NCBI RefSeq assembly: GCF_009931435.1
Contig: NZ_CP043414.1
Length of the DNA stretch: 64,000 nucleotides
Direction: 5' to 3' (one strand)
Source of the DNA: Escherichia coli
GTDB taxonomy: Bacteria > Pseudomonadota > Gammaproteobacteria > Enterobacterales > Enterobacteriaceae
The notes beneath the pieces are model-generated. The model saw only the letters and a program-made list of their open reading frames with translations. It was not told the origin of the DNA and made no database searches. This document shows positions 1 to 61,996 of this stretch, one piece after another (positions within the stretch are counted from its first letter, which is position 1; each line of letters opens with the position of its first letter). Both the position numbers and the translations under genes were made by a program.

Positions 1-1104
1 GCGGAAGAGAAAAGCCTCGAAACGCTGACCCGCACCATCACTGAAACCAGCGATCAACAGGTCAGTTGGGAAACCATTCCGCTGATCGAGCCCATCAGTT
101 TAAGCCTCGGTTACAAGCTGGTGGCGCTGGTGGACAAAGCGCAGGGCAACCCGCTCACCCAGCGTATTCGCGGCGTGCGGCAGGTGATTTCCGACGGCAA
201 CGGCGTGCTGCTGCCGGAGATCCGCATTCGGGAAAACTTCCGCCTCAAGCCCAGCCAGTACGCCATTTTCATCAACGGCATTAAGGCTGATGAAGCGGAT
301 ATTCCGGCGGATAAACTGATGGCCCTGCCCTCCAGCGAAACCTACGGCGAGATTGACGGCGTGCTGGGGAACGACCCGGCGTACGGGATGCCGGTGACCT
401 GGATTCAGCCCGCGCAGAAGGCGAAGGCGCTGAATATGGGGTATCAGGTGATCGACAGCGCCAGCGTAATTGCCACGCATGTGAATAAGATTGTGCGCAG
501 CTATATTCCTGATTTGTTTAACTATGACGATATTACTCAGCTGCATAACCGTTTGTCGTCAATGGCACCGCGCCTGGCAGAGGATTTGAGTGCGGCGCTG
601 AATTACAGCCAGTTGCTGAAAGTGTACCGGGCACTGCTGACCGAAGGCGTTTCCCTGCGCGATATCGTCACCATCGCCACCGTGCTGGTCGCCAGTAGCA
701 CCGTCACCAAAGATCATATTCTGCTGGCGGCCGATGTGCGCCTGGCACTGCGGCGCAGCATTACCCATCCGTTCGTTCGCAAGCAGGAGCTGACGGTGTA
801 TACGCTGAATAATGAGCTGGAAAATCTGCTGACCAACGTGGTGAATCAGGCGCAACAGGCCGGCAAAGTGATGCTCGATAGCGTGCCGGTTGACCCAAAT
901 ATGCTCAACCAGTTCCAGAGCACGATGCCGCAGGTGAAGGAGCAGATGAAAGCGGCAGGTAAAGACCCGGTGCTGCTGGTGCCGCCGCAGCTGCGCCCGT
1001 TGCTGGCGCGTTATGCGAGGTTATTTGCGCCGGGGTTGCATGTGCTGTCGTATAACGAAGTGCCGGACGAGCTGGAGTTGAAGATTATGGGGGCGTTGAG
1101 TTGA
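1..1104 (+). CDS. lfhA: FlhA-family flagellar export protein, C-terminal portion (Flag-2 LfhA-like); open at window start, may be a remnant
   Basis: ORF 121..1104 is in a frame that stays open back to base 1; translation resembles the FlhA cytoplasmic domain; sits next to yafL/dinJ as lfhA does in K-12. Confidence 0.6.
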   Translation, partial: AEEKSLETLTRTITETSDQQVSWETIPLIEPISLSLGYKLVALVDKAQGNPLTQRIRGVRQVISDGNGVLLPEIRIRENFRLKPSQYAIFINGIKADEADIPADKLMALPSSETYGEIDGVLGNDPAYGMPVTWIQPAQKAKALNMGYQVIDSASVIATHVNKIVRSYIPDLFNYDDITQLHNRLSSMAPRLAEDLSAALNYSQLLKVYRALLTEGVSLRDIVTIATVLVASSTVTKDHILLAADVRLALRRSITHPFVRKQELTVYTLNNELENLLTNVVNQAQQAGKVMLDSVPVDPNMLNQFQSTMPQVKEQMKAAGKDPVLLVPPQLRPLLARYARLFAPGLHVLSYNEVPDELELKIMGALS

Positions 1105-1187
1105 TTGAGGATTCTTTTCCATACTTTGCAGCACCTGACACCATTAATTGACGTCACACTGCAAAGAGACTACGATGACACCATACA

Positions 1188-1487
1188 ATGACGTCATGGA
1201 TTGATAGTATGATTAAGGTCAGCGCGCTAGGCTCTCGTCATAGAAAAACATTCGACGATGTAATGACGGAGCCGCCAAAATCTGGAATTAAATGGGATGA
1301 TGTTGTTGCTCTCATTAAAGCGGTGGGTGGATCAATAAAAAATAACAACGGCTCCAGACGAAAATTTCAGATTGGAACGACCAAATTCAGCACACATGAG
1401 CCGCATCCAAAGAATGTGATGGATAAAGGCGCAGTAGCAGGTCTTAAGGAGTGGTTTGTTAACTGTGTAGGGGTAGATTATGAATAA
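1188..1487 (+). CDS. HicA-like toxin (mRNA interferase family); true start may be the internal ATG at 1263
   Basis: Small protein with GSRRKF...HEPHPKN...GAVAGLKEW pattern that parallels HicA (GSHHIY...PHPKKDL); overlaps the downstream gene by 8 nt as in toxin-antitoxin operons. Confidence 0.45.
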   Translation: MTSWIDSMIKVSALGSRHRKTFDDVMTEPPKSGIKWDDVVALIKAVGGSIKNNNGSRRKFQIGTTKFSTHEPHPKNVMDKGAVAGLKEWFVNCVGVDYE

Positions 1488-1836
1488 AGCATCGAACATT
1501 ATCACAATTAAAGGTCAACCAGCCGCAGTGACATTTGAAGCCGATATCAACGCATTTCGCGGCAAGTTCCTCAATGTAAACGGTTATTGTGACTTTGTAG
1601 CCACAAGTATTGAGGCATTATATCGTGAAGGCGAAAGCGCTCTGGATGAGTGGATGGCGGATTGTGAAGAGGACGGTATTGCCCCTTTTCGTGAAGAAGA
1701 AGAGCAAAAACGCCTGACGCTTCGTGTGCCGCATCACATCGATTCGCGGCTGACCATCGTCGCCAGACAACATTCCATTTCAAAAAACCAGCTCATTATT
1801 GATGTCTTAGAACGTGAGTTTTCAGCCCAGATGTAA
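1480..1836 (+). CDS. HicB-like antitoxin with C-terminal ribbon-helix-helix region
   Basis: 118 aa; C-terminus LRVPHHIDSRLTIVARQHSISKNQLIIDVLE looks like a CopG/RHH DNA-binding motif; translationally coupled to the upstream small gene. Confidence 0.5.
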   Translation: MNKASNIITIKGQPAAVTFEADINAFRGKFLNVNGYCDFVATSIEALYREGESALDEWMADCEEDGIAPFREEEEQKRLTLRVPHHIDSRLTIVARQHSISKNQLIIDVLEREFSAQM

Positions 1837-1858
1837 ACAGGTCGTCAATATTACCCAT

Positions 1859-2608
1859 TTACAAAATCGTCTCTTCCGTCAAAATCCGCCGCGCGCCTAA
1901 AAAATGATCCTGCCAGAAAGGTTCAGCTAACCGACTTACCCGAATGGTTTCCCCGGTGCGCGGCGACTCGATAAACTGACCGTCTCCCAGATACACGCCC
2001 ATATGGTCGGCAATCTCGCGGCTGTGAATATGGAAAAACAGCAAATCTCCCCGGCGCAGGTCGTTATTTGCCACAATGGTTGCCCGACGGTAGTGATACA
2101 TCTCATTGGCCGTGCGCGGGAGTTTCGCCTCGAGGATCTTGTTGTAGGCATAAAAAACCAACCCGCTACAGTCGAAGCCTTTATCAGGCCGCGTACCTCC
2201 CCAGACGTAAGGCTTACCAAGCTGCTGCTCCAGACGGTGAATCGCTACTTCGGTGATGTTATGCAGATGGTCGCTGCTTAAGAAATGGTTGTTTTCCGCC
2301 AGCGCCTGCCAATGTTTATCGCTCAACTTCAACGGTGCAGGGAACCACTCAGGATGCTGTTTTATCTGCTCCCGGTTGTGCTGGCGCAGCGCCCTTCTGC
2401 TTTGTGCATCGCCTTCCACAATGTAGCTGGCCTGTTTTTTCAGATGCGCGTGGTATCGCTTTAGCAATCGCGTACGGTTTTGCATCCGCTGGCGGGCGGC
2501 GTAGCTGAAAGAGATATGTGATGCGGTGGCGCTGGCAAATGAAGAAAACGGCAAGCAAAGCAACAATAATCCCGACAACACAAAAGAGGGAATCGACGGC
2601 AAAGACAT
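1859..2608 (-). CDS. yafL: NlpC/P60-family lipoprotein peptidase YafL
   Basis: ORF 1859..2668; start moved to the internal Met at 2608 (249 aa, MSLPSIPSFV signal); C-terminal Cys/His region typical of NlpC/P60; conserved position. Confidence 0.8.
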   Translation of the reverse strand: MSLPSIPSFVLSGLLLLCLPFSSFASATASHISFSYAARQRMQNRTRLLKRYHAHLKKQASYIVEGDAQSRRALRQHNREQIKQHPEWFPAPLKLSDKHWQALAENNHFLSSDHLHNITEVAIHRLEQQLGKPYVWGGTRPDKGFDCSGLVFYAYNKILEAKLPRTANEMYHYRRATIVANNDLRRGDLLFFHIHSREIADHMGVYLGDGQFIESPRTGETIRVSRLAEPFWQDHFLGARRILTEETIL

Positions 2609-2817: not shown

Positions 2818-3078
2818 ATGGCTGCTAACGCGTTTGTTCGCGCCCGAATCGATGAAGATCTGAAGAATCAGGCGGCGGACGTACTGGCCGGGATGGGGCT
2901 GACCATCTCTGACCTGGTTCGCATAACCCTCACAAAAGTCGCGCGTGAAAAGGCATTGCCGTTTGATTTACGCGAGCCTAATCAATTAACCATTCAATCA
3001 ATTAAAAACAGCGAAGCTGGCGTTGATGTTCATAAGGCCAAAGACGCCGATGATTTATTTGATCAATTAGGAATTTAA
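2818..3078 (+). CDS. dinJ: DinJ antitoxin
   Basis: 86 aa; MAANAFVRARIDEDLKNQA... matches DinJ; directly followed by yafQ. Confidence 0.9.
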   Translation: MAANAFVRARIDEDLKNQAADVLAGMGLTISDLVRITLTKVAREKALPFDLREPNQLTIQSIKNSEAGVDVHKAKDADDLFDQLGI

Positions 3079-3080
3079 AT

Positions 3081-3359
3081 ATGATTCAAAGGGATATTGA
3101 ATACTCGGGACAATTTTCAAAGGATGTAAAACTTGCACAAAAGCGTCATAATGATATGAATAAATTGAAATATCTTATGACGCTTCTTATCAATAATACT
3201 TTACCACTTCCAGCTGTTTATAAAGACCACCCGCTGCAAGGTTCATGGAAAGGTTATCGCGATGCTCATGTTGAACCGGACTGGATCCTGATTTACAAAC
3301 TTACCGATAAACTTTTACGATTTGAGAGAACTGGAACTCACGCGGCGCTATTTGGGTAA
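3081..3359 (+). CDS. yafQ: YafQ toxin (RelE-family mRNA interferase)
   Basis: 92 aa; starts 3 nt after the dinJ stop; sequence matches YafQ. Confidence 0.9.
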   Translation: MIQRDIEYSGQFSKDVKLAQKRHNDMNKLKYLMTLLINNTLPLPAVYKDHPLQGSWKGYRDAHVEPDWILIYKLTDKLLRFERTGTHAALFG

Positions 3360-3514: not shown

Positions 3515-4255
3515 ATGCGTAAAATCGCATTAATTCTTGCGATGTTGTTGATCCCGTGCGTTTCGTTTGCCGGTTTGCTGGGCAGCAGTAGCTCGACCAC
3601 GCCAGTGAGCAAAGAGTATAAGCAGCAGTTGATGGGCTCCCCTGTCTACATCCAGATCTTCAAGGAAGAGCGCACTCTCGATCTCTACGTCAAAATGGGT
3701 GAGCAATATCAGCTGCTCGACAGTTATAAAATCTGTAAATATTCCGGCGGATTAGGGCCTAAACAGCGTCAGGGCGATTTCAAAAGCCCGGAAGGGTTTT
3801 ATAGCGTCCAGCGTAATCAGTTAAAACCAGACAGCCGTTACTACAAAGCGATTAATATTGGATTCCCCAATGCTTATGACCGTGCGCATGGTTATGAAGG
3901 GAAATACCTGATGATTCACGGCGATTGTGTTTCCATCGGCTGCTACGCGATGACCAATCAAGGTATTGATGAGATCTTCCAGTTCGTTACTGGCGCGCTG
4001 GTGTTTGGTCAGCCAAGCGTGCAAGTGAGTATTTACCCGTTCCGCATGACCGACGCCAACATGCAGCGCCATAAATATTCCAACTTTAAGGACTTCTGGG
4101 AGCAACTGAAGCCGGGCTACGACTACTTTGAACAAACCCGTAAGCCACCGACCGTTTCTGTGGTCAATGGTCGTTACGTGGTCAGCAAGCCGTTAAGCCA
4201 CGAAGTGGTGCAGCCACAGCTGGCATCAAACTACACGCTCCCCGAGGCAAAATAA
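3515..4255 (+). CDS. yafK: L,D-transpeptidase-fold periplasmic protein YafK
   Basis: 246 aa with signal peptide and a YkuD-like HGDCVSIGC active-site motif. Confidence 0.85.
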
Positions 4256-4993
4256 GCGCCATTCGCCTGGCATAATCTTTTGCCAGGTTTCATTGCCCGT
4301 CAGCGGCTGTGTCGCAATCACCGTGACCACATCATTCGGTGTGGTCTGCGAGCTGAAGTCGATTTCCACATCCTGATCCAGCAACGTTGCCACGCCAAAC
4401 GGCGCGCGGCGGGTGATCCAGTGCAGATTGGTCGAGCAATACGCCATTACATAGCGTCCGTCCGAAAGTAGCATGTTGAAAACGCCCTTCTGCCGCAGTT
4501 CATCCGCCAGTGAGGCGATATATTTAAACACTGCCGCCATGTTGCCTGGTGTGCGCGGGTAACGCTGTGTTAATTTATGCAGCAGCCAGCAAAAGGCTTT
4601 TTCGCTGTCGGTTTCACCTACCGGACGGAAGTTGCCGGTTTCCAGTGACTTGTACCCCGTCAGTTGCCCGTTATGGGCATAAGTCCAGTTGCGTCCCCAT
4701 AACTCGCGGGTAAACGGGTGAGTATTTTCCAGCGCCACCTCGCCCCGATTGGCCTGGCGAATATGAGCCACCACCGAACAGGATTTTATCGGGTAGTCCT
4801 GGACAAGTTTGGCGATGGGGGAATTAAAGCTGGGTTGTGGATCTTTAAATGTGCGACAGCCTTTACCTTCGTAAAAGGTAATGCCCCAGCCATCTTTATG
4901 TGGCCCGGTTCCACCACCACGCTGCACCAGACCGGTGAAACTAAAGCAGATATCGGTAGGGACGTTAGCGCTCATCCCGAGCAATTCGCACAT
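4226..4993 (-). CDS. yafJ: Class II glutamine amidotransferase-like protein YafJ
   Basis: ORF 4226..5008; start moved to the ATG at 4991-4993 (MCELLGMS...), preceded by GGAGG; N-terminal Cys nucleophile typical of the family. Confidence 0.85.
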
Positions 4994-5045
4994 GGGTAAC
5001 CTCCACAACAGCGGGAGCGCATGGCCCCCGGCGAAGATTGATTTA

Positions 5046-5200
5046 AGAATTTTCAGGTCGGATGCGGCGTGAATGCATTATTCGGCCTACGGTTCGGGTA
5101 CAGATTTGTAGGCATGATAAGACGCGTCAGCGTCGCATCAGGCATCAGCGCACAAGTGCCGGATGCGGCGTAAACGCCTTATCCAGCCTACGCCAGACTT
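5046..5200. repeat. REP/BIME cluster (about three REP units) between yafJ and gmhA
   Basis: Repeated gccggatgcggcgt(g/a)aa(c/t)gc...ggcctac palindromic units typical of enterobacterial REP elements. Confidence 0.6.
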
Positions 5201-11951: not shown

Positions 11952-14900
11952 TATTCTGGCGTACCCGTTATTGTCATCGTCTGCAACGGTCCATCCACCC
12001 GATAAAAAGGCAGTCCACTATGAGCTCCTCTGACACACTCATCTAAAGTTTTCGCCGCACGCGATTCAATTATTGTAATAACCCTTGCCTCTTCTTTATT
12101 ATCATATTTCTTATCCGTCCGACTTAAAAGAGCCATGAAATTTTCTTTATCAAGAAGGTAATACTGTGCATGTGCAAACTCATGCCCCAAACCTAATGCA
12201 GGCGATTGTGATTTCGAGTTTAATTCAGTTGAACAAAATAAAGACGCTCTACTATTCCAATATATCGTCATATTATTCGAATTAAATCTACCATTGGTTC
12301 CTTCAATATACTCTATATTTATAGTTTCTTCAGAGCTTGATAAAAAATCTATAGCATCTTTCATTCGTGAATCTTTTTCTAAATACTTAACAGCCTGATT
12401 AAAATCACTTGGATCACCATTAACCTCGAATTTTAAACCCAAAGAATCTATAAACCGAACAGGGTTTAATGGATATTTATACAGATTCCATTCACCTCTT
12501 AGCCCGATTGGATCCTGCGTGATATACCTCCCCTGCAACGGGTCATAGTACCGGTGACGGTTGTAGTACAGCCCCGACTCCTCATCATACTGCTGCCCTG
12601 GCAGACGGTACGGCTGTTGCAGGTGCTCCGGGTTTTCCTCTCCCAGCAGGTTTCCCCACTCGTCATACTCCCCGCGCCACGCCGTTTCCCCTTCCGGGCT
12701 GATAAGCGCCTGCGGCAGCCCACGGTGGTCACAGTGGTAAAGATGAAGTTTCCTCTCCGGGATGTATTCTTCCTCCATCTGGTTGTTCATCTGTTCCGCC
12801 GTCAGCCCGCACTGCGCAAGCCATGCTTCACTCTCCGCACTCACCGCACCCGCGCGCAGTTCCCGCTCCAGCCTCCCCAGCATCACCGACAGCTCCGCCG
12901 GGAGCGTCACACCCGTGTCCTCCTGCAACACCTCCGCCAGGCTACGGTGCCGCGCCTTCGCCTGTTCGCCATTCTCTGTTTCGATTCTCAGGAGCGGCGT
13001 GAAGCTTCCCGGCTGATAAATCGTCTGGATACGTGTGGTGCCGGTCTGTACCGTCGTCAGCCTGTCACCGTCCCACCCGTACCATGTCTCCTCCGGTTTA
13101 CGCGACAGCGACATCCATCCCGTCAGGTCACGCTCCCGCCGCCACACCCGTTTTCCCGTCCTGCGGCCCAGCGGGTCGTAAAGGTAGCGGCTCTCCACCT
13201 GCGGCTCGCCGTGCTGTATCCGCGTGTAGAACACCAGACGGTGCTGGCTGTCGTAATGGTAGTGGTGGGTGCGCTCGTCGTGCATCCGTATCACCCCTTC
13301 CGGGATACGGTCCGTCTTCTCCGCCAGCCTGCCGTATTCATCGTGGCGGTAGACATAGTGCGCATCTTCCGCGATGCGGTTATCCGGCCACGCCGTGAAG
13401 GTGCTGTCCGGGTGCAGTTCCGGGTCCGGCAGCCGGTTTCCTGCCGGGTCCGTCGCATACGGGATATCAATGTCCAGGTTCGCTGCCGTGGTGTGGACGC
13501 CCGTCAGCCTTCCCGTGTCGCTGTAACGGTACTCCCGGCTCTCCTGCGGGCCGCTGATACGCACCAGTTGCCCGTTATCATTCCACGTATACTCACGGTC
13601 AAGCTGCGGAAGGTTCAGGTGCCTGCTCCGGAGCTGGCCTGTGAGGGTGTATGTGCTGGTCAGTTCATATGCGGCATTACTGCCTGCCATGCTGCCGAAG
13701 CTGCGCACCGTCTCACGGTGCAGCCTGTCCCGCGTGTACTCGACCAGCGGCGTTCCGCCCAGCTTCATCCCCGCAAGATAACCGCTGCCATACGTCAGCC
13801 ACTCCACCGGCGGCAGACCGTCCGGCTCCTGACGGGTCGCCAGCCCCTGTTCGCTGTACGCGTGCCCCGTCTCATGCTCCCACAGCATCTCCCCCGTCTC
13901 CGGGTTCTCCACCGTCTGCCGTTCGCCCGTCAGGCGGCCCTTATCGTCATAGCCGTAGTGGACCGCCACACGGTGGCCTTCACTGGTATGGCTGAGGGTG
14001 GTTAACCACCCGTGCTCATCATACTGCCACTGCTCTGCCGCTTCGCCGTTCACCGTCCGGTGCGTGATGCGGTCCGACGCATCGTAGTGCCAGAGGGTGA
14101 TAAGTCCCTCGTCTTCACTGCGGACAAGCTGCCCTGTGGCGCTGTACCGGTAACGCTGTGTCCGTCCGTCAAAGCCGCGCTGCTCCGTCAGGCGGTCCAC
14201 CGGGTCATACAGGAACGTGGACTGGCTGCCGTTCTCATTAGTCAGCGTGGTGATGCGCCCGGCGGCGTCATACCCCATGCTGCGCGTCAGACCGCCCTGC
14301 GTGGTGCTGATAGCTTTACCCCACGCATCATACTGTGTCTCACTGCGGCTGCCGTTCGGGGCAATGATAGCGGTGAGGTCGCCTGCGGCGCTGTACTCAT
14401 AACGGGTTTCACGCCCCTGCACATCCTTCTGACTGACCAGTTGACCACGCGGGTTATAACTGCTGTAAGTGCTGATGCCTTCTTCCCGGTGAACCGCCGT
14501 CCTCTGCCCGTACCGGTCGTACTCATACCGTGTCGTGTACCCCGAGCAGTCCGTGAAGGCCAGCAGTTGACCGTAGCGGCTCCATGCCATCTGTTTTGTA
14601 CTGCCCGTCGCATCCTGTATCCCTGTCGGCAGCTCACTCGCCGGGTCATCATAGCTGTACCGCGTCGTCTCACCGCTGCGCGAGGTCTCCGCCGCCAGCC
14701 TTCCCTTCTCATCATACTCCCGGCTGCTGCGAAGCCCGTCCGGGTACGTCACTGACGTCACCTGCCGCTGGCTGTTGTAGCCATACCGCACCGTCCTGCC
14801 GTCCGGCCCCGTCACCGCCGTCACCGCGCCCGACGCCATATGCAGGCTGTACTCCGTCCGCCGCCCCGCCGCATCCGTCTGCGCCTTCAGCCTCCCCGCC

Positions 14901-18074: not shown

Positions 18075-21000
18075 TGATTAAAATCCGTAAAATTAGAAGG
18101 AACAGGGCCATTCTCAGGTGAAAACAATGGAGATGTATTTGATACTCGTGATGCTATCATTTCTACAGTAGCAGGAAGATACATTGGCATTCCATTATCA
18201 CCACCTAGCGGATCAGTTGAAGTTAAAATTTCATTTATTGAATCTACTGAGACTCCCGCATGCAACATTGCCTCAATAACCATTGTTGCACAATTGTGCG
18301 TAAAATAGTTATAGTCACTTCTATCTACTTTATATTTTTCATCAATGTACTTAATCATTGCTTTCTCTTGTTCTGGCGTGGTTTTAATTGTATATATCCT
18401 CGTGCTTCTACGTTGTGCTTGTTCAGTTAAATAAGCTATGACACTCCCTCCACGTGGGGTAGCGGTTCCATAGCTATATACCCCTTTTCCAGTAAATGCC
18501 ATCGCAGAATGCCCTAATGGATTACCACTCGTGGGTCCCCCAGCAAAAATAAGGGTATCCAAACCAAGTGGATCTATATTTATAGTTGGATTCCACGGAT
18601 ATTTATAAAGATTCCATCCCCCCGCAAGCCCGATTGGATCCTGCGTGATATACCTCCCCTGCAACGGGTCATAGTACCGGTGACGGTTGTAGTACAGCCC
18701 CGACTCCTCATCATACTGCTGCCCTGGCAGACGGTACGGCTGTTGCAGGTGCTCCGGGTTTTCCTCTCCCAGCAGGTTTCCCCACTCGTCATACTCCCCG
18801 CGCCACGCCGTTTCCCCTTCCGGGCTGATAAGCGCCTGCGGCAGCCCACGGTGGTCACAGTGGTAAAGATGAAGTTTCCTCTCCGGGATGTATTCTTCCT
18901 CCATCTGGTTGTTCATCTGTTCCGCCGTCAGCCCGCACTGCGCAAGCCATGCTTCACTCTCCGCACTCACCGCACCCGCGCGCAGTTCCCGCTCCAGCCT
19001 CCCCAGCATCACCGACAGCTCCGCCGGGAGCGTCACACCCGTGTCCTCCTGCAACACCTCCGCCAGGCTACGGTGCCGCGCCTTCGCCTGTTCGCCATTC
19101 TCTGTTTCGATTCTCAGGAGCGGCGTGAAGCTTCCCGGCTGATAAATCGTCTGGATACGTGTGGTGCCGGTCTGTACCGTCGTCAGCCTGTCACCGTCCC
19201 ACCCGTACCATGTCTCCTCCGGTTTACGCGACAGCGACATCCATCCCGTCAGGTCACGCTCCCGCCGCCACACCCGTTTTCCCGTCCTGCGGCCCAGCGG
19301 GTCGTAAAGGTAGCGGCTCTCCACCTGCGGCTCGCCGTGCTGTATCCGCGTGTAGAACACCAGACGGTGCTGGCTGTCGTAATGGTAGTGGTGGGTGCGC
19401 TCGTCGTGCATCCGTATCACCCCTTCCGGGATACGGTCCGTCTTCTCCGCCAGCCTGCCGTATTCATCGTGGCGGTAGACATAGTGCGCATCTTCCGCGA
19501 TGCGGTTATCCGGCCACGCCGTGAAGGTGCTGTCCGGGTGCAGTTCCGGGTCCGGCAGCCGGTTTCCTGCCGGGTCCGTCGCATACGGGATATCAATGTC
19601 CAGGTTCGCTGCCGTGGTGTGGACGCCCGTCAGCCTTCCCGTGTCGCTGTAACGGTACTCCCGGCTCTCCTGCGGGCCGCTGATACGCACCAGTTGCCCG
19701 TTATCATTCCACGTATACTCACGGTCAAGCTGCGGAAGGTTCAGGTGCCTGCTCCGGAGCTGGCCTGTGAGGGTGTATGTGCTGGTCAGTTCATATGCGG
19801 CATTACTGCCTGCCATGCTGCCGAAGCTGCGCACCGTCTCACGGTGCAGCCTGTCCCGCGTGTACTCGACCAGCGGCGTTCCGCCCAGCTTCATCCCCGC
19901 AAGATAACCGCTGCCATACGTCAGCCACTCCACCGGCGGCAGACCGTCCGGCTCCTGACGGGTCGCCAGCCCCTGTTCGCTGTACGCGTGCCCCGTCTCA
20001 TGCTCCCACAGCATCTCCCCCGTCTCCGGGTTCTCCACCGTCTGCCGTTCGCCCGTCAGGCGGCCCTTATCGTCATAGCCGTAGTGGACCGCCACACGGT
20101 GGCCTTCACTGGTATGGCTGAGGGTGGTTAACCACCCGTGCTCATCATACTGCCACTGCTCTGCCGCTTCGCCGTTCACCGTCCGGTGCGTGATGCGGTC
20201 CGACGTATCGTAGTGCCAGAGGGTGATAAGCCCCTCGTCTTCACTGCGGACAAGCTGCCCTGCGGCGCTGTACCGGTAACGCTGTGTCCTGCCATCAAAG
20301 CCGCGCTGCTCCGTCAGGCGGTCCAGCACATCATAGGTAAACTCACTCCGGCTGCCGTTCTCGTTGGTCAGCACGGTGATGCGCCCGGCGGCGTCATACC
20401 CCATGCTGCGCGTCAGCCCGCCCTGCGTGGTGCTGACGGCCTTTCCCCACGCATCATACTGTGTCTCACTGCGGCTGCCGTCCGGGGCAATGATAGCGGT
20501 GAGGTCGCCTGCGGCGCTGTACTCATAACGGGTTTCACGCCCCTGCACATCCTTCTGACTGACCAGTTGACCACGCGGGTTATAACTGCTGTAAGTGCTG
20601 ATGCCTTCTTCCCGGTGAACCGCCGTCCTCTGCCCGTACCGGTCGTACTCATACCGTGTCGTGTACCCCGAGCAGTCCGTGAAGGCCAGCAGTTGACCGT
20701 AGCGGCTCCATGCCATCTGTTTTGTACTGCCCGTCGCATCCTGTATCCCTGTCGGCAGCTCACTCGCCGGGTCATCATAGCTGTACCGCGTCGTCTCACC
20801 GCTGCGTGAGGTCTCCGCCGCCAGCCTTCCCTTCTCGTCATACTCCCGGCTGCTGCGCAGCCCGTCCGGGTACGTCACTGACGTCACCTGCCGCTGGCTG
20901 TTGTAGCCATACCGCACCGTCCTGCCGTCCGGCCCCGTCACCGCCGTCACCGCGCCCGACGCCATATGTATCCGGTACTCCGTCCGCCGTCCCGCCGCAT

Positions 21001-60454: not shown

Positions 60455-61996
<1,542 letters not shown>

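What the first reader, a model, noticed from the sequence alone, without database searches (positions are those of the whole stretch)
1188..1836. HicAB-like toxin-antitoxin pair where K-12 carries rayT
Between lfhA and yafL, where I recall the REP-associated transposase rayT (yafM) in K-12, this sequence has two overlapping small genes resembling a HicA mRNA interferase and a HicB antitoxin with a ribbon-helix-helix tail. Together with dinJ-yafQ about 1 kb away this makes two toxin-antitoxin modules flanking yafL.
Basis: partly seen in the sequence, partly recalled or inferred. Interest (0 to 1): 0.4.

Follow-up and report, generated by a model that had tools for sequence, protein, structure and literature searches.

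The report
Known hicAB cassette replacing rayT
Between the flagellar gene lfhA and yafL this E. coli strain carries a two-gene HicA/HicB toxin-antitoxin cassette where K-12 carries the REP transposase rayT; this swap was published in 2012, is routinely annotated and occurs in a quarter of E. coli genomes, so it is ordinary, although the HicA lacks the usual catalytic histidine.

Summary
Two overlapping + strand genes lie at 1209-1487 and 1480-1836. They pass Pfam's curated cut-offs for HicA_toxin (29.1 bits against 27) and HicB (40.5 against 21). The HicB model's best fold matches are solved HicB structures, and its tail is ribbon-helix-helix. A K-12-like genome has rayT plus REPs at this site. 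Among 5426 complete E. coli genomes, 3569 carry rayT, 1369 carry hicAB here, about 110 carry hicB only, and the rest carry neither. NCBI's PGAP pipeline already names both genes. Ton-Hoang et al. 2012 (PMC3333891) described this replacement, mostly in phylogroup B1. Additions from this work:
- Both genes are under strong purifying selection (pN/pS 0-0.27, mostly at or below 0.1).
- A candidate operator of four TGACGTCA-like octamers keeps its positions in related cassettes of other Enterobacteriaceae.
- This HicA belongs to a "long" subfamily with Arg in place of the catalytic His of every validated HicA, and a conserved HxPHP motif instead. Its toxicity is untested.

The parts
1136..1156 (+). 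Candidate operator site 1: octamers TGACACCA (1136-1143) and TGACGTCA (1149-1156), 13 nt centre to centre. It is flanked by the inverted repeat CTTTGCAG (1124-1131) / CTGCAAAG (1159-1166).
   Evidence: A 21-nt direct repeat with 40-nt spacing. Octamers at -73 and -60 from ATG 1209 recur at the same offsets in the cassettes L006, L009, L012 and L014. Exact TGACGTCA occurs 5 times in the 64-kb window against 0.9 expected, and two of the five are here.
1148..1176 (+). Sigma-70-like promoter: -35 TTGACG (1148-1153, inside octamer 2), 17-nt spacer, -10 TACGAT (1171-1176).
   Evidence: Consensus scan, 9 of 12 positions matched. The same TTGACG-17-nt layout can be read in the upstream sequences of L006, L009 and L012 printed (my reading of those sequences). 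Function is not shown.
1176..1196 (+). Candidate operator site 2: octamers TGACACCA (1176-1183) and TGACGTCA (1189-1196), just downstream of the -10 hexamer.
   Evidence: The offsets -33 and -20 are conserved in L006, L009 and L012.
1209..1487 (+). hicA: a 92-aa HicA-family protein of the 'long' subfamily, with an extra N-terminal helix. It has G48-S49-R50 in place of the canonical G-S-H, and the motif H63-x-P65-H66-P67. The longest ORF starts at 1188.
   Evidence: Pfam PF07927 at 29.1-29.4 bits against a cut-off of 27. PGAP names it 'HicA family toxin', WP_000598759.1. PHROG 8887 'toxin', E 5e-20. The subfamily profile matches B. pseudomallei HicA at E 0.005. Residue counts are. pN/pS is 0-0.27.
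1480..1836 (+). hicB: a 118-aa antitoxin and probable autorepressor. [quoted passage not shown] Its start overlaps the hicA stop (ATGAATAA), with AGGGG 9 nt upstream.
121..1104 (+). Left flank: 3' part of lfhA/flhA (Flag-2 FlhA). The variable interval starts just after its stop codon.
   Evidence: Pfam FHIPEP, E 3e-73. PGAP names it flhA.
1859..2608 (-). Right flank: yafL (NlpC/P60, C40 peptidase), convergent with hicB. Only 22 nt separate the two stop codons. The variable interval ends at the yafL stop codon.
   Evidence: Pfam NLPC_P60, E 3e-33.
2818..3359 (+). dinJ (2818-3078) and yafQ (3081-3359), the second toxin-antitoxin module, on the other side of yafL.
   Evidence: Pfam RelB, E 7e-34, and YafQ_toxin, E 7e-32. 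The NCBIfam hits agree.

Best explanation
This is a chromosomal type II toxin-antitoxin cassette of the HicAB family. [quoted passage not shown] It fills the whole lfhA-yafL intergenic interval, which in K-12 and two thirds of E. coli holds the rayT REPtron.

Shown here:
- Both proteins meet the curated family profiles.
- HicB has the HicB N-terminal fold and a ribbon-helix-helix tail.
- The genes overlap by 8 nt.
- Both genes are under strong purifying selection.
- The cassette is one of at least four alleles at this site.
- Related cassettes sit at unrelated chromosomal sites in other Enterobacteriaceae and have relatives in phage protein families.

Inferred:
- The operon is transcribed from a sigma-70 promoter whose -35 hexamer lies inside the second of four TGACGTCA-like octamers.
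- HicB dimerises through its ribbon-helix-helix domain and probably forms a tetramer, as the Yersinia pestis and Burkholderia pseudomallei HicB proteins do.
- It binds these 8-bp palindromes and so represses its own promoter.
- The HicB N-terminal domain covers the active face of HicA.
- hicB is translated by coupling to hicA.
- When HicB is depleted, free HicA arrests growth by acting on RNA.

The last step is the weakest. This HicA lacks the His at the beta1-beta2 turn that every validated HicA needs. Catalysis, if there is any, would have to use the subfamily's conserved H63/H66 (HxPHP) and R50.

The allele most likely spreads by homologous recombination in the conserved flanking genes. No REPs, repeats or recombinase mark its ends.
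For: - Pfam cut-offs are passed by both proteins, and all 65 sampled subfamily members match HicA_toxin.
- The subfamily profile aligns to solved HicA proteins: 6g26_E and 4c26_A at E 0.005, and 4p78_C at E 0.12.
- The PHROG hits are 'toxin' and 'HicB-like antitoxin'.
- PGAP names both genes.
- pN/pS is 0-0.27, with pS up to 0.20.
- Allele counts: hicAB in 1369 of 5426 genomes, rayT in 3569.
- Ton-Hoang 2012 describes the same replacement.
- Octamers at -73, -60, -33 and -20 are conserved in position across cassettes whose HicB is 57-68% identical.
- Homologous cassettes lie in different genomic contexts.
- The Class 4 definition and the operator and neutralisation models come from the literature.
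Against: - The canonical catalytic His is absent. Position 50 is Arg, and in the subfamily it is R in 50 of 65 and never H. In the gonococcal HicA, a His after beta3 (His40) was dispensable; I take it to be the counterpart of H66, but I did not align the two.
- The Pfam HicA score is only about 2 bits above the cut-off.
- No NCBIfam model and no PADLOC model matched either protein.
- I found no experimental test of this pair.
- The SD before ATG 1209 is weak (GGA).
Confidence: 0.8

Rival explanations
1. The pair is HicAB by descent, but the HicA-like protein is not an RNA-cleaving toxin of the validated kind. One possibility is that its active site has moved to H63/H66 (HxPHP) with R50. Another is that it acts without cleavage, for example by binding RNA or the ribosome. 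A third is that it is only weakly toxic or not toxic, and the pair persists mainly as a small autoregulated regulator pair.
For: - The aligned position of B. pseudomallei His24 is Arg50.
- Among 65 subfamily members, position 50 is R in 50 and H in none. H63 is present in 61 of 65 and H66 in 65 of 65.
- Every validated HicA depends on the beta1-beta2 His.
- About 110 genomes keep hicB alone, which shows that HicB is retained without its partner.
Against: - Strong purifying selection acts on hicA itself.
- The G48-S49 turn, the PHP motif and the toxin-first overlapping operon are all conserved.
- An invariant His close to the canonical site is what a relocated catalytic residue would look like, so the protein may still be an RNase.
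- Loss of the toxin with retention of the antitoxin is the usual way real toxin-antitoxin modules decay.
Confidence: 0.15
2. It has the same architecture, but its biological role is anti-phage abortive infection rather than stress response or persistence. Phage infection would deplete or displace HicB and free HicA.
For: - Gerdes 2024 argues that HicA modules in general act in phage defence.
- Both proteins have full-length relatives in phage protein families.
- The cassette is mobile and patchy: it occupies a variable site and has different contexts in other species, once next to higBA.
Against: - No PADLOC model matched.
- The neighbours are housekeeping genes and a flagellar remnant, not a defence island.
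- No phage data exist for this pair.
Confidence: 0.25
3. The ORFs are non-functional remnants, or chance ORFs that resemble HicAB.
For: The Pfam HicA score is marginal. No sequence-level match exists in the PDB.
Against: - pN/pS is 0-0.27 over alleles with pS up to 0.20.
- Intact ORFs are present in 1369 genomes.
- Homologues of the same length occur as the same pair in other genera.
- The HicB fold matches are to HicB structures.
Confidence: 0.02

Closest known systems
The hicA-hicB allele between yafL and fhiA/lfhA of E. coli (for example strain IAI1), described by Ton-Hoang et al. 2012, Nucleic Acids Res 40:3596 (PMC3333891)
   Same: Same locus, same genes and same relationship to tnpAREP/rayT. 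In that study 24 of 110 strains, mostly phylogroup B1, had hicAB in place of tnpAREP and its BIMEs. I see the same proportions in 5426 genomes: 25% hicAB and 66% rayT.
   Different: Nothing essential differs. The window's allele is a rare sequence variant: only 7 genomes are at least 99% identical. It lacks the 34-nt hairpin that most carriers have between hicB and yafL. Its closest genome has a full-length flhA.
Yersinia pestis HicA3-HicB3 (PDB 4p78) and Burkholderia pseudomallei HicAB (PDB 6g26, 6g1n): Class 4 hicAB, with a ribbon-helix-helix HicB
   Same: The toxin gene comes first. [quoted passage not shown] The promoter is flanked or overlapped by two operator sites, as with BS1 and BS2 of Y. 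pestis.
   Different: HicA here is 92 aa and has an extra N-terminal helix. It has Arg in place of the essential His28 (Y. pestis) or His24 (B. pseudomallei), and it has HxPHP. The genes overlap by 8 nt, whereas the Y. pestis genes are separated by a 174-bp spacer. The operators are pairs of 8-bp TGACGTCA palindromes, not 15-bp inverted repeats. No sequence-level similarity is detectable without profiles.
E. coli K-12 hicAB (yncN-ydcQ; PDB 6u0i for HicB): Class 3, with a helix-turn-helix HicB
   Different: It lies at a different locus, near 1.5 Mb in K-12. Its HicA is 58 aa with G-S-N-H. Its HicB is 138 aa with an HTH domain, not a ribbon-helix-helix. hhalign finds no significant similarity for either protein. 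The window's pair is therefore a second, distant hicAB paralogue of the species.
The rayT (yafM, tnpAREP) REPtron of E. coli K-12
   Same: It occupies exactly the same intergenic interval, from the lfhA stop to the yafL stop.
   Different: It is unrelated in sequence and function: a Y1 HUH transposase flanked by REP/BIME elements. The window has no rayT and no REP in this interval.

Membership tests
HicA toxin family (Pfam PF07927, COG1724) | Match to the curated family profile above its gathering score | tested here: met
   29.1 bits (99-aa form) and 29.4 bits (92-aa form) against a cut-off of 27. All 65 sampled members of its subfamily match, best E 2e-12. The subfamily profile matches solved HicA 6g26_E and 4c26_A at E 0.005. 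The margin for this single sequence is small.
HicA toxin family (Pfam PF07927, COG1724) | dsRBD-like alpha-beta-beta-beta-alpha fold | tested here: inconclusive
HicA toxin family (Pfam PF07927, COG1724) | Conserved catalytic His at the beta1-beta2 turn or start of beta2 (G-S-H; His24 in B. pseudomallei and N. gonorrhoeae, His28 in Y. pestis, His36 in S. pneumoniae, His23 in E. coli K-12) | tested here: not met
   The window protein has G48-S49-R50-R51-K52-F53. The profile alignment puts R50 on B. pseudomallei residue 24. In 65 subfamily members, position 50 is R in 50 and H in none, and position 51 is H in 2. That this His is essential comes from the literature. I therefore file the protein as a divergent HicA-family homologue, not as a canonical HicA mRNA interferase.
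HicA toxin family (Pfam PF07927, COG1724) | Conserved Gly two residues before that position (Gly22 in B. pseudomallei and N. gonorrhoeae) | tested here: met
   G48 is present, and G occupies this position in 63 of 65 subfamily members.
HicA toxin family (Pfam PF07927, COG1724) | Growth arrest or RNA cleavage on expression, neutralised by the cognate HicB | not testable with these tools
   I found no experimental report for this pair.
HicB antitoxin, ribbon-helix-helix type (Pfam PF05534, COG4226; Class 4 of Gerdes 2024) | Match to the curated HicB profile | tested here: met
   40.5 bits against a cut-off of 21, residues 60-110. PHROG 9151 'HicB-like antitoxin', E 5e-13, over residues 6-114.
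HicB antitoxin, ribbon-helix-helix type (Pfam PF05534, COG4226; Class 4 of Gerdes 2024) | N-terminal partial RNase H-like (beta-beta-beta-alpha) domain | tested here: met
HicB antitoxin, ribbon-helix-helix type (Pfam PF05534, COG4226; Class 4 of Gerdes 2024) | C-terminal ribbon-helix-helix DNA-binding domain | tested here: met
   The family profile matches AmrZ (3qoq_A, E 0.019) and Arc (1b28_A, E 0.36) over residues 69-115. PHROG 582 'Arc-like repressor', E 7.5e-5. The model has helices 85-97 and 102-117 after the LTLRVP segment. The ribbon itself forms only in a dimer, and a dimer was not modelled.
HicB antitoxin, ribbon-helix-helix type (Pfam PF05534, COG4226; Class 4 of Gerdes 2024) | Autorepression through palindromic operators in the hicAB promoter | not testable with these tools
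   Candidate operators were found. They are four TGACGTCA-like octamers that overlap the -35 hexamer and lie just downstream of the -10 hexamer, conserved in position in related cassettes. Binding is not shown.
Type II toxin-antitoxin module (general) | Two small adjacent co-transcribed genes, patchy and mobile distribution, both maintained by selection | tested here: met
   The genes overlap by 8 nt. The cassette is present in 25% of E. coli genomes at this site. Related cassettes lie in unrelated contexts in other genera. pN/pS is 0-0.27.
REPtron (rayT/tnpAREP with flanking REP/BIME) | A Y1 transposase gene flanked by REP/BIME sequences at this site | tested here: not met
   blastn finds no rayT in the window and no REP-like motif within 1105-1858. 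REPs do occur elsewhere, for example at 5057-5191.

The most novel reading that the evidence does not exclude
This E. coli protein belongs to a widespread 'long HicA' subfamily: 754 cluster representatives at E of 0.001 or better, 84-92 aa, with an extra N-terminal helix. The subfamily has dropped the His that every experimentally validated HicA needs. It has G-S-R, never G-S-H, and it conserves an HxPHP motif in which H66 is invariant. If these proteins are still toxins, they use a relocated or different active site, or they do not cleave RNA at all. Their HicB partners would recognise a distinctive operator of paired 8-bp TGACGTCA palindromes. No member of this subfamily appears to have been tested.
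Probability: 0.4. Interest if true: 0.4.

Novelty: already known. Interest (0 to 1): 0.15.

Why it matters
As a locus observation it adds nothing. The rayT/hicAB alternative at lfhA-yafL was published in 2012, and standard pipelines annotate both genes. It remains a clean example of one intergenic site that holds four alternative contents: a REPtron, a toxin-antitoxin pair, an orphan antitoxin, or nothing. A second, independently variable toxin-antitoxin pair, dinJ-yafQ, sits next to it. This suits studies of how small selfish cassettes turn over by recombination in flanking core genes.

The one point with some wider value is the HicA subfamily. A quarter of E. coli strains, including many phylogroup B1 pathogens and commensals, carry a HicA that lacks the family's accepted catalytic residue. 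A simple toxicity and mutagenesis test would show whether the accepted HicA mechanism applies across the family.

Tried and rejected
- Single-sequence phmmer against PDB sequences found no HicA or HicB for either protein. A narrow 14-sequence HicA profile found none either. Only the 65-sequence subfamily profile reached solved HicA chains.
- NCBIfam gave no usable hit for either protein.
- PADLOC gave no hit.
- Foldseek of the HicA model against the PDB found nothing below E = 1.
- hhalign of the subfamily alignments against K-12 HicA and HicB found no significant similarity. The pair is therefore not a close paralogue of K-12 hicAB.
- No intrinsic terminator lies between hicB and yafL in the window.
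- I rejected the start codon at 1188 in favour of 1209.
- I looked for a site-specific insertion signature (target duplication, REPs, a recombinase). The junction alignments show only wholesale replacement of the intergenic interval.
- Literature searches for an experimental study of this pair, or for a HicA without the conserved His, returned nothing specific.
- One lookup (P0033) was not on record.

Full report
**Observation.** The window holds two co-oriented + strand ORFs at 1188..1487 (99 aa) and 1480..1836 (118 aa). They overlap by 8 nt, ATGAATAA. They lie between the 3' end of a FHIPEP/FlhA gene that ends at 1104 and an NlpC/P60 gene on the - strand (yafL, 1859-2608). A RelB/DinJ-YafQ pair follows at 2818-3359. 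So the coordinates, the gene order and the 'two modules flanking yafL' statement are all correct. One correction is needed: the real HicA start is most likely ATG 1209 (92 aa). PGAP annotates that start. Homologues at 64-88% identity are 92 aa. The upstream repeats sit at a constant distance from that ATG in other species. The ATG at 1188 is part of one of those repeats.

**Family assignment.**
- Pfam gives HicA_toxin at 29.1 bits (cut-off 27) and HicB at 40.5 bits (cut-off 21). NCBIfam has no model for either protein.
- No solved structure is detectable from the single sequences.
- The HicB C-terminal 45 residues match the ribbon-helix-helix proteins AmrZ and Arc by profile, and a phage 'Arc-like repressor' family.
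- In Gerdes's 2024 classification this is Class 4: hicAB with a ribbon-helix-helix HicB.

**A missing hallmark.**
- The profile alignment puts window residues G48-S49-R50 on B. pseudomallei G22-S23-H24.
- In the 65-member alignment, position 50 is Arg in 50 sequences and His in none. H63 occurs in 61 of 65 and H66 in all 65, giving the motif HxPHP.
- The literature is consistent that the His at the start of beta2 is essential in every validated HicA: S. pneumoniae His36, B. pseudomallei and N. gonorrhoeae His24, Y. pestis His28, and conserved His23 in E. coli K-12. K-12 HicA reads G-S-N-H.
- In the gonococcal protein, a His after beta3 (His40) that lies near His24 was dispensable. I take it as the likely counterpart of H66, though I did not align the two.
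- So this protein is a HicA-family homologue, but one defining functional feature is not met. I found no experimental test of this pair or of its subfamily.

**Function of both genes is nevertheless supported by selection.** Five E. coli alleles differ by up to 12 synonymous changes in hicA (pS 0.20) against at most 2 non-synonymous changes. pN/pS is 0-0.27 for hicA and 0-0.14 for hicB.

**Regulatory anatomy (inferred).** Upstream of hicA there is a 21-nt direct repeat at 1136-1156 and 1176-1196, spaced 40 nt start to start. Each copy holds two octamers 13 nt apart, TGACACCA and TGACGTCA. Exact TGACGTCA occurs five times in the 64-kb window against 0.9 expected, and two of the five are here.
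- In cassettes from Leclercia and other Enterobacteriaceae, whose HicB is 57-68% identical, octamers sit at the same offsets from the start codon: -73/-72, -60/-59, -33/-32 and -20/-19. The surrounding sequence has diverged. A 47%-identical cassette has a diverged pair, TGACTTCA/TGAAGTCA.
- A -35-like TTGACG lies inside octamer 2, with TACGAT 17 nt downstream. The second octamer pair would then cover the transcription start.
- This layout fits a ribbon-helix-helix repressor in which each dimer reads one 8-bp palindrome. It recalls the two operators that flank the Y. pestis hicA3 promoter.
- hicB has an AGGGG 9 nt before its ATG, and that ATG overlaps the hicA stop. This suggests translational coupling.

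**Comparison with K-12 and the species.**
- A K-12-like genome has rayT flanked by REPs at exactly this site.
- Sequence similarity between the alleles ends just after the lfhA stop on one side and at the yafL stop on the other.
- The window has no rayT and no REP in the interval.
- In 5426 complete E. coli genomes, rayT is present in 3569, full hicAB at this site in 1369, hicB alone in about 110, and neither in the remaining roughly 380.
- PGAP names the genes 'HicA family toxin' and 'HicB family antitoxin' in all carriers examined.
- Ton-Hoang et al. [quoted passage not shown]
- The finding is therefore already known.
- The pair is not the K-12 hicAB. That pair lies elsewhere, has an HTH-type HicB, and shows no significant similarity to this one.

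**Mobility.** Homologous 92-95 aa plus 115-120 aa cassettes lie between unrelated housekeeping genes in other genera, once next to a higBA pair. Both proteins have full-length relatives in phage protein families. No PADLOC defence model matches.

**Verdict.** The residual novelty lies in the HicA subfamily's missing catalytic His and in the conserved octamer operator. Both are testable with simple experiments.

Noticed in passing
L005:2416-2847 (NZ_CP173567.1), the same site as window 1105-1836: About 110 E. coli genomes carry hicB alone at the lfhA-yafL site. In L005, hicA is deleted almost down to its start codon. The -10 hexamer and the second octamer pair remain. HicB gains a rewritten N-terminus (MKTRLLISQASNII...). 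This is an orphan-antitoxin allele.
   Followed up: partly
window 2818-3359; compare L004, L005 and L016: dinJ-yafQ is itself polymorphic. In L004, L005 and L016, yafL is followed directly by dpaA with no dinJ-yafQ. The two toxin-antitoxin modules that flank yafL therefore vary independently.
   Followed up: no
window 1837-1858; compare L002:2338-2393: Most hicAB carriers have a 34-nt hairpin-forming insert (TCGGATGCCGCGTGGCATCCGACCTTTTGCCAGT) between the hicB and yafL stops. The window lacks it, which leaves 22 nt and no predicted terminator between the convergent genes. Only 7 of 5426 genomes are at least 99% identical to the window's allele.
   Followed up: partly
window 1-1104; L001:1-3105: The only listed genome that matches at 100% has a full-length flhA preceded by flhB, so the end of the Flag-2 cluster is intact there. 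K-12 and several hicAB carriers have an N-terminally truncated lfhA pseudogene. The window starts inside the gene, so its own state cannot be read.
   Followed up: no
window 1209-1487 against L002, L016, L017 and L018: Synonymous divergence among E. coli hicA alleles reaches pS 0.20 while the proteins are identical or differ by 1-2 residues. This seems high to me for divergence within one species, and it suggests old allelic lineages or import by recombination.
   Followed up: no
window 5057-5191: A cluster of REP/BIME-like repeats matches the REPs that flank rayT in K-12 at 86-94% identity. It lies just past the 5' end of yafJ (ORF 4226-5008, - strand).
   Followed up: no
window 14753-14760, 20879-20886, 60801-60808: These are the three other exact copies of the palindrome TGACGTCA in the window. 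I did not examine whether any is near a promoter that HicB could reach.
   Followed up: no
L006:3730-5138: In Leclercia, the homologous hicAB cassette sits back to back with a HigB-like toxin / HTH antitoxin pair. This is another case of toxin-antitoxin modules clustering.
   Followed up: no
L004:1605-1703: The 'empty' allele has a 97-nt intergenic stretch with its own G+C-rich hairpin (CCCCTCGCCCCTTTGGGGAGAGGG). It shares its first roughly 13 nt after the lfhA stop with the hicAB alleles, and its last roughly 7 nt before the yafL stop with the rayT allele.
   Followed up: no
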